NCBI RefSeq assembly: GCF_017348835.2
Contig: NZ_CP071375.1
Source: Escherichia coli
Lineage (GTDB): Bacteria; Pseudomonadota; Gammaproteobacteria; Enterobacterales; Enterobacteriaceae
Reading direction: 5' to 3' (one strand)
DNA: 64,000 nt
Below are positions 1 through 3,000 of the stretch, in pieces. Made by a program: the position numbers. Position 1 is the first letter of the stretch. Every line of letters begins with the position of its first letter.

Positions 1-3000
1 CATGGTTTGCGGTAGCTTCAGCAACTTAGTCTGGAAATGATCCAGCGCGTAGCGTTTATCATCAAGCGGGCGATGCTGTGCGAACGGATCTTCACCATCA
101 AACAGCGCCACGCCCAATGCCCCTGAAACGGCAAACACGCGCGCCAGGCCAATCGCCCCCAGGGCTTCCAGCCGATCCGCATCCTGGACGATTTTAGCTT
201 CCGTTGTTAAGGGGGCGATTTGCGCGCTGAAACTGTGAGCGGCAATGGCATGACAAACGGCCTCAATTTTCTCCGCCGGAAATTGCACGAACTCTTCACG
301 GAGCAGGCGACGCGTCTCTTCTGCCGCCAGGATTGAAGAACGCTGCCGTTGCGGATGATTTTTCGCCAGGCTCACAATATCGTGGAAATAACAGGCGGTT
401 AAAATCACCAGCATATCGACGTCATCATCTGCCGCCAGCTTCTGTGCCGTAGCCCAGACGCGGCGAAAATGACACAAGTCATGGGCCGCGTCCTGGTGCT
501 GATGATGGTTTTTCAACCAGTTTTCGAACTGTGCCTGCCAGTGTTGTAAGTCCATACGCGCTCCGTTGCCAAAGAGTCGCCACCTTAGCAGTTTTTATTC
601 ATAGCGTCTGCTACGTGCGGGACGAGGTCGGGTGTACCAGGCAATGCTGCCTAACAATGCCCCGACCAGAGCCATAAATAAAAATCCGACCAGTGCCCCT
701 AACCACTTTCCCGCGGTAGAGCCTAAATCGCTTTCAAATCCCGACACGGGGGCATCGGGGATCCGGCTCATCACCCAGATGTAACGCGCCATTGCCCAGA
801 CGAAATAGCCACACCATGTATAGAAAGCCCACAAAGCCAGTTTGCCGCCAGGGCTGCGAGAGAGTCTCTCTTCCATCTTTGTCGAACCGTATTCCATTTT
901 GAGATAACCCGGAAAATTCAGACTTAGTACTATTATGTGATAAAAGTCACATTTTTCCACATTGAATGAGCCAGTCAAGACTCAATCATTTTTTGAACAA
1001 ATAGATAAATTTTGCGCAACGGCAGTGAATACAGGAAAAATCGTTTTGAGCGATTTTATTTATCTTTGATATCGGCTTTATTAATTCATTCAATCAATAT
1101 ATTAGCACTGATTACAATTATACCTTTTTATTATTCTGTGTCATGATGCTTCCGTTATTAGCCTTTTATCGTCTTGTTTATATTTTTTGGGCCGGCATGA
1201 TGCCGGCTTTTTTTTATGCCTTCATTAATGTGCGCGTGATCACACCAGCCGTTTAGCGCAACAATCATTGATACCCCCTATCTTTCCGCTCAACTCATAA
1301 CATATTGATATGCATTTATAATTTTCATGAATATTTATATTTAGAATTCATAATTCTGAATTATATTAAATAGATTGGAAACATTTTGAAATCTTTTAAA
1401 TATATTTGTTACATGTAATCTTTAAAATAAAATGAACTTCATAGAATAGTATCCAAATGTGCTTTTTTTTTGGATAACGGCACTTATTGATATATTCATG
1501 AAGATTATAATCACAAGGGAATACATAATGAAAAGAAAAGTTCTGGCAATGCTGGTCCCGGCGTTATTAGTTGCTGGCGCAGCAAATGCGGCTGAAGTCT
1601 ATAATAAAGATGGTAATAAACTGGATTTCTACGGAAAAGTAGCAGGTCTGCACTACTTCTCTGACAACTCGGGCGCTGATGGCGATATGTCATATGCCCG
1701 TATCGGTTTCAAAGGCGAAACACAAATCGCTGACCAGTTCACTGGTTACGGTCAGTGGGAATACAACCTGCAAGCAAATGGCACAGAAGGCGATGGAGAT
1801 AACTCTGCTACCCGTCTGGCATTCGCAGGTTTAGGTTTTGGTCAGAATGGTACTTTCGATTATGGTCGTAACTACGGTGTCGTATATGACATCGAAGCAT
1901 GGACCGATATGCTGCCAGAATTTGGTGGCGATACCTACGCGGGTGCCGACAACTTCATGAACGGTCGTACCAACGGTGTTGCAACCTACCGTAACAATGG
2001 CTTCTTTGGTCAGGTTGATGGCTTGAACTTTGCTTTGCAATATCAGGGTAATAATGAAAGTGGTGGACCATTCGGGCAGGAAGGTTCCGGTAGTGGTGAT
2101 GGCCGTAGCCTTTCCAAGGAAAATGGTGATGGTTTCGGTATGTCAACATCCTACGACTTCGACTTCGGTTTAAGTCTGGGTGCTGCATATTCAAACTCTG
2201 ATCGTTCAGATCGTCAGGTTGGAGTTGGTTTAAATGATCGTAACCATAGCAACAGAAATGCTGGTGGTGAAACCGCTGAAGCATGGACTGTTGGTGCAAA
2301 ATATGATGCTAATAATGTGTATTTAGCAGCTATGTACGCTGAAACTCGCAATATGACCCCATATGGTGGTGGCGAGTTTGATAATGGTGAATCAAGATCA
2401 GCCATCGCTAACAAAACCCAAAACTTTGAAGTTGTTGCTCAGTATCAGTTCGACTTTGGCCTGCGCCCGTCCATCGCTTACCTGCAATCTAAAGGTAAGG
2501 ATTTAGGCGGTTGGGCTCATGACGGTAATGGCGATCCGCATTACACCAACAAAGATCTGGTTAAATATGTTGATATTGGTATGACCTACTACTTCAACAA
2601 AAACATGTCCACCTACGTTGATTACAAAATCAACCTGCTGGACAACGACGACGACTTCTACAAAGAAAACGGCATCGCTACCGATGATATCGTAGCTGTG
2701 GGCTTAGTCTACCAGTTCTAATCAGCCAACGCGCCGCGGCGTGTTACTGTAAAACTTAACAATAGCCTGAGTTCGTCCCTCATCGAACTCAGGCTTTTTT
2801 TATTGGCATTTCATCTCCATCTCCGGCACACGCAATTGTCAATGCATATCGATACAGCACCTTACCCTGCCCCTGCTGGCACAATATCTTCTACCAGCTA
2901 CTCTTCCAGCCAACACTCCAAATACATTTCTTTATGAATTAATCCGCAACAAACACGCTTCCCATATAGAAATATTTGCAAAAATAGTGCATGAAATATG

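What the first reader, a model, noticed from the sequence alone, without database searches (positions are those of the whole stretch)
1189..1214. Orphan plus-strand terminator in the yedR-yedS intergenic region
GGGCCGGCATGATGCCGGC followed by eight T sits ~230 nt after yedR on the other strand, with no plus-strand ORF of 60 codons or more upstream. It may end a small RNA or small-protein transcript.
Basis: seen in the sequence. Interest (0 to 1): 0.2.

Follow-up and report, generated by a model that had tools for sequence, protein, structure and literature searches.

The report
Terminator of the known sRNA RseX
The "orphan" hairpin plus T-run is the transcription terminator of RseX, a well-studied 91-nt E. 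coli regulatory RNA that sits between drpB (yedR) and the porin gene yedS, so the feature is real but already known.

Summary
A GC-rich hairpin (1189-1209) followed by eight T (1208-1215) lies on the + strand, with no long ORF upstream, and is far stronger than chance. It is not orphan. It is the intrinsic terminator of the Hfq-binding small RNA RseX (rseX, b4603), which occupies window 1125-1215. Three results support this:
- A full-length Rfam RF01401 match scores 97.7 bits against a gathering score of 50.
- The 91 nt are 100% identical to the rseX ncRNA annotated in E. coli K-12 MG1655, in the same drpB(yedR)-rseX-yedS position.
- The terminator is conserved in other Escherichia species, and Citrobacter amalonaticus carries one compensatory G-C to A-U change in the stem.

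Published work on the identical K-12 sequence reports four things. RseX is a primary 91-nt transcript. It represses ompA and ompC with Hfq. It is silenced by H-NS, so it is undetectable in wild type. The loop of this very terminator is needed for repression of fepA.

The 37-codon ORF that crosses the hairpin is frameshifted or lacks its start codon in the homologues. Interest is low: this is already known.

The parts
1125..1215 (+). rseX gene: the 91-nt Hfq-binding small RNA RseX
   Evidence: Rfam RF01401 match over model positions 1-94 of 94, 97.7 bits vs gathering 50, E=3.8e-14. The 91 nt are 100% identical to the NC_000913.3 ncRNA rseX b4603, 2033649-2033739.
1113..1118 (+). Probable -10 hexamer (TACAAT) of the rseX sigma-70 promoter, 6 nt upstream of the annotated +1 at 1125; the -35 is weak (TTCAAT/TCAATC around 1089-1095)
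   Evidence: Read from the sequence and positioned relative to the K-12 annotated 5' end. PMC8313858 cites a sigma-70 consensus and 5' RACE from Douchin 2006. The hexamer assignment is my inference.
1138..1162 (+). 5' stem-loop of the Rfam rseX model (GU...AUGAU / GCUUCC loop / GUUAU...GC)
   Evidence: Structure line of the Rfam alignment. Support is weak: homologues break pairs here, and RNAalifold and MFE folding propose different pairings.
1153..1173 (+). Invariant single-stranded core (CGTTATTAGCCTTTTATCGTC, RseX nt 29-49); probable target-pairing (seed) region
   Evidence: Identical in all 9 Escherichia and Citrobacter homologues (columns 29-49). RseX nt 30-43 form 14 contiguous pairs with ompC -14..-1 across the Shine-Dalgarno sequence; 12 of 300 shuffles do as well.
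1174..1188 (+). U-rich stretch (TTGTTTATATTTTTT) immediately 5' of the terminator hairpin; with the 3' U-tail it forms the usual Hfq-binding module of sRNAs
   Evidence: Read from the sequence. Assigning it to the Hfq-binding module rests on established knowledge of Hfq-dependent sRNAs and was not tested here.
1189..1209 (+). Terminator hairpin: 5' arm 1189-1197, loop TGA 1198-1200, 3' arm 1201-1209
   Evidence: -14.3 kcal/mol. It is the only helix kept in all homologues, with one compensatory G-C to A-U pair in Citrobacter. The loop is reported as required for fepA repression (PMC11979758).
1208..1215 (+). Eight-T tract (U-tail): site of transcript release and Hfq-binding 3' end
   Evidence: Homologues have 7-8 T. 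The K-12 annotated 3' end corresponds to window 1215.

Best explanation
The hairpin plus T8 at 1189-1215 is the Rho-independent terminator that forms the 3' end of RseX, a 91-nt trans-acting, Hfq-dependent small RNA (window 1125-1215). RseX is transcribed from its own sigma-70 promoter in the AT-rich drpB(yedR)-yedS intergenic region. The terminator does three jobs. (1) It stops RNA polymerase about 312 nt before the yedS start codon and so defines the 91-nt RNA. (2) Together with the U-rich stretch just upstream, its stem and 3' U-tail form the module through which such sRNAs bind Hfq and are stabilised. (3) Its loop (UGA) is reported to be needed for an unusual repression of fepA that apparently does not use base pairing. 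The invariant single-stranded core upstream (nt 29-49) pairs with the ribosome-binding regions of ompC and ompA mRNAs to repress these outer-membrane proteins. The locus is normally silenced by H-NS/StpA. Shown here: identity, structure, conservation, synteny and the ompC complementarity. Taken from the literature on the identical K-12 sequence: the transcript, Hfq dependence, the targets, H-NS silencing and the loop function.
For: Full-length Rfam rseX hit at 97.7 bits vs gathering 50. K-12 annotates ncRNA rseX b4603 between drpB and yedS, and the window's 91 nt are identical to it. The hairpin is strong (7 WC + 2 G.U pairs, -14.3 kcal/mol, 8 T) and occurs about 150 times more often than simulation predicts. 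The region is present in 4,908 of 5,426 complete E. coli genomes. Homologues in E. albertii, E. whittamii, two other Escherichia lineages (unnamed Escherichia sp.) and Citrobacter amalonaticus keep the terminator, with one compensatory pair, and keep the core. The yedJ-drpB-rseX-porin synteny is kept in Citrobacter. There are 14 contiguous pairs between the invariant core and the ompC SD region. The intergenic region is 20-31% GC against 52-58% in the flanking genes, which fits H-NS binding. Literature: a 91-nt RNA in delta-hns, Hfq-dependent ompA/ompC repression and 5' RACE (PMC8313858); the terminator loop and the RseX+52 fragment suffice for fepA repression (PMC11979758); a 91-nt sRNA next to drpB (PMC7648144).
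Against: No expression data exist for the strain this window comes from. In wild-type K-12 the RNA has never been detected under laboratory conditions, so its natural role and inducing signal remain unknown. The energy z-score of the whole RNA is unremarkable (-1.2), and the 5' stem-loop has no covariation support. My pairing statistics for ompA are no better than shuffles. One SNP relative to K-12 (window 1091, C for T) lies in the -35 region and reported H-NS site, and its effect is unknown.
Confidence: 0.97

Rival explanations
1. The terminator ends a short mRNA for a small protein: the 37-codon ORF at 1143-1256, or another ORF under 60 codons upstream.
For: An ATG-ATG start at 1143 opens a 37-aa hydrophobic ORF on the + strand.
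Against: The ORF runs through the terminator and stops 41 nt beyond the end of the T-run, so the 91-nt RNA would lack its stop codon. There is no Shine-Dalgarno sequence upstream (TTATTCTGTGTC). In 5 of 8 distinct homologues, T-run indels put a stop at codon 19. Citrobacter has ATT-ATC in place of ATG-ATG. Conservation follows the RNA core, not the reading frame.
Confidence: 0.02
2. The element is a cis-acting leader or attenuator of the downstream porin gene yedS. On this view transcription from the rseX promoter normally stops at the hairpin and reads through into yedS under some condition, and RseX is mainly the terminated by-product.
For: It is on the same strand as yedS, 312 nt upstream of the ATG (1528), and yedS is intact in this window. 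The RseX-porin adjacency is kept as far as Citrobacter. RNA-seq in hns mutants raised 'RseX and surrounding areas' together (figure legend).
Against: RseX acts in trans from plasmids without yedS. RseX is 100% conserved in K-12, where yedS is a pseudogene. No alternative anti-terminator structure is evident in single-sequence or consensus folds. A hairpin with 8 U is predicted to be efficient. Promoter-like sites lie between the terminator and yedS (1340-1367 and 1406-1433).
Confidence: 0.05
3. It is a chance hairpin, or a bidirectional or - strand terminator unrelated to any + strand RNA.
For: Loose terminator-like patterns are common: 6 found vs 4.2 expected in 4 kb.
Against: Under strict criteria the site is about 150-fold beyond expectation. 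On the - strand the stem is followed by CCAAAAAATA with no T-run, and no - strand gene ends here because drpB begins, rather than ends, on that side. The Rfam model covers the whole 91 nt, not just the hairpin.
Confidence: 0.01

Closest known systems
RseX sRNA of E. coli K-12 (rseX, b4603; Rfam RF01401; predicted by Chen et al. 2002, characterised by Douchin et al. 2006 as cited in PMC8313858)
   Same: Identical 91-nt sequence, same strand, same neighbours (drpB/yedR upstream and divergent, yedS downstream), same terminator.
   Different: Nothing within the RNA. Outside it there is one SNP in the -35 region and reported H-NS site (window 1091, C vs T) and two SNPs downstream (1236, 1255). The neighbouring yedS is an intact 397-codon ORF here but a pseudogene in K-12.
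Porin-regulating sRNAs encoded next to porin genes: MicF (next to ompC) and MicC (next to ompN)
   Same: A short Hfq-dependent sRNA ending in an intrinsic terminator, which represses major outer-membrane protein mRNAs by pairing at the ribosome-binding site and sits beside a porin gene (established knowledge; the ompC complementarity was seen).
   Different: MicF and MicC are divergent from their porin neighbour and are expressed under known regulators. RseX is in tandem with yedS and is silent unless H-NS is removed. No sequence similarity was seen: there is no Rfam hit to MicF or MicC in this region.
SdsR and ArrS terminator-loop-dependent repression of fepA (PMC11979758)
   Same: [quoted passage not shown]
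   Different: This is the same phenomenon, described for RseX itself, so it is not a point of novelty. The loop is UGA in all Escherichia homologues but UUU in Citrobacter, so the loop function may be specific to Escherichia.

Membership tests
Rfam RF01401 rseX (Hfq-binding sRNA RseX) | Covariance-model score at or above the curated gathering score, over the full model | tested here: met
   97.7 bits vs 50; model positions 1-94 of 94; window 1125-1214, + strand
Rfam RF01401 rseX (Hfq-binding sRNA RseX) | Orthologous position between drpB (yedR) and yedS, and sequence identity to the type gene b4603 | tested here: met
   K-12 annotation; 91 of 91 nt identical; flanking ORFs are drpB at 595-897 (-) and yedS at 1528-2721 (+)
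Rfam RF01401 rseX (Hfq-binding sRNA RseX) | A ~91-nt primary transcript that binds Hfq and represses ompA and ompC | not testable with these tools
   Reported for the identical K-12 sequence (PMC8313858; PMC7648144). The only test here was complementarity to the ompC SD region: 14 contiguous pairs, matched by 12 of 300 shuffles.
Rho-independent (intrinsic) transcription terminator | GC-rich stem of about 5-14 bp with a short loop | tested here: met
   9 pairs (7 WC, of which 6 G-C, plus 2 G.U), 3-nt loop, -14.3 kcal/mol
Rho-independent (intrinsic) transcription terminator | Uninterrupted U/T tract immediately 3' of the stem | tested here: met
   Eight T at 1208-1215; 7-8 T in all homologues
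Rho-independent (intrinsic) transcription terminator | The stem is maintained in evolution (covariation or conservation) | tested here: met
   7 of 8 predicted pairs are kept in 9 of 9 sequences, one of them as G-C to A-U in Citrobacter. With only one covarying pair the support is mostly conservation.
Rho-independent (intrinsic) transcription terminator | Transcripts actually end there in vivo | not testable with these tools
   The 91-nt RNA seen on northern blots in delta-hns and from plasmids is consistent with this. A search found no paper containing both 'RseX' and 'Term-seq'.
Small-protein (sORF) gene | An ORF with a start codon and ribosome-binding site, kept in frame among relatives | tested here: not met
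   No SD sequence. The frame is broken by indels in 5 of 8 distinct homologues, and the start codon is lost in Citrobacter.

The most novel reading that the evidence does not exclude
In strains like this one, where yedS is intact, the rseX terminator may be partly leaky. Relief of H-NS silencing would then switch on both RseX and, by read-through or a shared silenced domain, the alternative porin YedS. The result would be a one-locus 'porin swap' module, with OmpC and OmpA down and YedS up. This could not have been seen in K-12, where yedS is a pseudogene. I found no convincing RseX-yedS pairing, so any coupling would be transcriptional.
Probability: 0.08. Interest if true: 0.35.

Novelty: already known. 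Interest (0 to 1): 0.07.

Why it matters
It matters little as a discovery. The feature is the terminator of an sRNA predicted in 2002 and characterised in 2006, and both the sRNA and this hairpin's loop are still being studied. The check has three practical uses. First, it shows that a sequence-only reader correctly recognised an sRNA 3' end. Second, it shows that PGAP-annotated E. coli genomes omit rseX, so such 'orphans' should be screened against Rfam before being flagged. Third, it warns that wild-type RNA-seq would wrongly 'refute' the finding, because the gene is H-NS-silenced.

Tried and rejected
(1) Unrestricted RNAduplex energies of the RseX body against the yedS, ompC and ompA leaders were uninformative. 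Even the validated targets were no better than dinucleotide shuffles (157-371 of 500 shuffles as good).

(2) In a contiguous-seed search, only ompC stood out (14 nt; 12 of 300 shuffles). yedS and ompA (10 nt each) were at chance level (175 and 184 of 300). There is therefore no evidence that RseX targets the adjacent intact yedS.

(3) The small-protein reading is rejected.

(4) The weaker Rfam hits overlapping the hairpin (RyhB 23 bits, Esr41 19 bits, STnc430 on the - strand 23 bits) are all far below their gathering scores. They reflect generic terminator similarity.

(5) Whole-RNA folding gave a z-score of only -1.2. Apart from the terminator, RseX has little stable structure, and the Rfam 5' stem-loop has no covariation support.

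(6) A literature search for 'RseX' together with 'Term-seq' found nothing in the held library.

(7) A search on yedS and carbapenem papers did not retrieve the primary YedS paper. It found only a marker study of this intergenic region that never mentions RseX.

Full report
**Observation.** Window 1189-1215 reads GGGCCGGCA-TGA-TGCCGGCTT with the T-run continuing to 1215. The consensus scanner reports it as a 9-pair stem (6 G-C pairs) with a 3-nt loop and a T-rich tail. ViennaRNA gives the hairpin -14.3 to -14.6 kcal/mol. The loose scanner finds 6 terminator-like sites in 4 kb against 4.2 expected, so the generic pattern is not rare. I therefore applied a strict definition: a perfect Watson-Crick stem of at least 7 bp with at least 5 G/C, a loop of 3-8 nt, and at least 7 T in the next 8 bases. 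Under it, this is the only + strand site in all 64 kb. Four more lie on the - strand, against 0.03 expected on both strands in Markov simulations. The + strand ORFs upstream are only 35, 44 and 37 codons. Its '~230 nt' is measured from the obsolete GTG start of yedR (960), and the corrected DrpB start is the ATG at 897.

**Identity.** An Rfam scan of 850-1600 returns a full-length match to RF01401, 'rseX Hfq binding RNA'. It covers window 1125-1214 on the + strand at 97.7 bits against a gathering score of 50, E = 3.8e-14, with model positions 1-94 of 94. The curated K-12 MG1655 record annotates ncRNA rseX (b4603) at 2033649-2033739, between drpB (formerly yedR, b1963) and the yedS pseudogene. 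A gap-free alignment shows window 1125-1215 is identical to it at all 91 positions. The nearest differences are window 1091 (C for T, upstream), 1236 and 1255. The flanking ORFs in the window are yedJ, drpB/yedR (595-897, - strand) and a porin ORF (ATG 1528 to 2721, + strand) followed by hchA. The feature is therefore the 3' end of a known gene.

**Why it looked orphan.** PGAP-annotated RefSeq genomes carry no feature here. The features under the match are only 'porin' or 'ompC', and the tables for strains PE164, 39EVA and 83972 list drpB and the porin but no ncRNA.

**Conservation.** The 631-bp intergenic region is present in 4,908 of 5,426 complete E. coli genomes, mostly at 95-99% identity. 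A degenerate-pattern scan of one genome per species found RseX in E. albertii, E. whittamii, two further Escherichia lineages (unnamed Escherichia sp.), a divergent E. coli and Citrobacter amalonaticus.
- In the alignment, the segment CGTTATTAGCCTTTTATCGTC (RseX nt 29-49) is invariant.
- The terminator helix is the only helix kept throughout. Seven of its eight predicted pairs hold in all nine sequences. In Citrobacter the G-C pair at the base of the stem has become A-U by changes on both sides.
- The loop is TGA in every Escherichia sequence and TTT in Citrobacter.
- The T-tract is 7-8 long.
- In Citrobacter the gene order yedJ-drpB-RseX-porin is the same.
- The 5' stem-loop of the Rfam model is not supported by covariation. 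Homologues break pairs there, and the alternative folds disagree.

**Mechanism.** Shown here: the anatomy of an intrinsic terminator. A U-rich stretch (1174-1188) sits immediately 5' of the hairpin and an 8-U tail follows it. This is the arrangement through which Hfq-dependent sRNAs are known to bind Hfq, which is established knowledge and was not tested here. RseX nt 30-43, inside the invariant core, can form 14 contiguous pairs with ompC -14..-1 across the Shine-Dalgarno sequence, and 12 of 300 shuffles do as well.

From the literature on the identical K-12 RNA:
- RseX was predicted from a sigma-70 promoter plus this terminator (Chen 2002).
- 5' RACE indicates a primary transcript. It represses ompA and ompC in an Hfq-dependent way and bypasses the need for RseP (Douchin 2006, as summarised in PMC8313858).
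- It is undetectable in wild type but appears as ~91-nt and ~75-nt species in delta-hns strains, with RNA-seq log2FC 7.2 in hns/stpA.
- It also targets fimB and ihfB.
- The last 40 nt (RseX+52, essentially the terminator) repress fepA 23-fold. [quoted passage not shown]

The intergenic region is 20-31% GC against 52-58% in the neighbouring genes. That fits H-NS silencing.

**Rivals.**
- Small protein. The 37-codon ORF 1143-1256 crosses the terminator and has no SD sequence. It is truncated at codon 19 by T-run indels in five homologues and lacks a start codon in Citrobacter. Rejected.
- Leader or attenuator of yedS. This is possible in principle, given the same strand, the 312-nt distance and the conserved adjacency. 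But RseX works in trans, it is perfectly conserved where yedS is dead, no anti-terminator structure is evident, and candidate promoters lie between the two. I give it about 5%.
- Chance or a - strand terminator. Excluded and by the absence of a T-run on the - strand.

**Pairing with the neighbouring porin.** yedS is intact here, unlike in K-12, so I asked whether RseX might target it. Unrestricted duplex energies were uninformative even for the known targets. The best contiguous match to the yedS initiation region is 10 nt of A/U, at chance level. There is no evidence for such targeting.

**Verdict.** The RNA is RseX, which is already known, annotated in K-12 and curated in Rfam. Interest is low. 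The only residual open questions belong to RseX biology in general: its natural inducing condition, how the terminator loop acts on fepA, and any relation to an intact yedS.

Noticed in passing
window 1117-1144 (- strand): The best promoter-like site in the first 4 kb is on the - strand: ATGACA-16 nt-TATAAT, 11 of 12 matches. Its -10 (1122-1117) overlaps the rseX -10 (TACAAT, 1113-1118, + strand) back to back, and its -35 lies inside the RseX transcribed region. It would fire toward drpB from about 1110. It could be a bidirectional or competing promoter pair and might contribute to the silence of RseX. The elements are conserved in the Escherichia homologues, but that is confounded with conservation of RseX itself.
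   Followed up: partly
window 1528-2721 (+ strand): The porin gene yedS is an uninterrupted 397-codon ORF with a signal peptide here. It is a pseudogene in K-12 and is split by an IS3 element in strain PE164, whose intergenic region is otherwise 100% identical to the window. A strong terminator follows it at 2764-2795.
   Followed up: partly
window 1091: The only difference from K-12 within 45 nt upstream of rseX is C for T at 1091. That position is -34 relative to the RseX +1, inside the -42 to -32 H-NS-occupied site reported in PMC8313858. Its effect is unknown.
   Followed up: no
window 900-1530: The yedR-yedS intergenic region is used in the literature as a host-source-informative SNP marker for E. 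coli (bovine, human, mouse). The paper never mentions that RseX lies within it (PMC11267920; 0 occurrences of 'RseX'). Most variation in my alignment lies outside the RseX core.
   Followed up: partly
window 42612-42728 (+), 45681-45853 (-), 50169-50343 (-), 57423-57474 (+): Other Rfam hits above gathering score in the window: an ALIL pseudoknot (IS3-family frameshift signal), STnc100, a sok antitoxin RNA (hok/sok-type toxin-antitoxin) and DicF (a prophage-borne sRNA). These point to insertion-sequence and prophage or island content in the distal part of the window.
   Followed up: no
window 46627-46873 (-), 61932-62018 (-), 63010-63082 (+): Five tRNA genes: a cluster of three at 46627-46873, one long-arm tRNA at 61932-62018, and one at 63010-63082. 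The cluster lies between the STnc100 and sok hits and may belong to a prophage or mark an integration site.
   Followed up: no
window 1198-1200 and homologues (L003 equivalent): The terminator loop, reported as functionally important for fepA repression, is UGA in all eight Escherichia sequences but UUU in Citrobacter amalonaticus. That species also has a 6-nt insertion and a less U-rich stretch before the hairpin. The loop-dependent activity may therefore be restricted to Escherichia.
   Followed up: no
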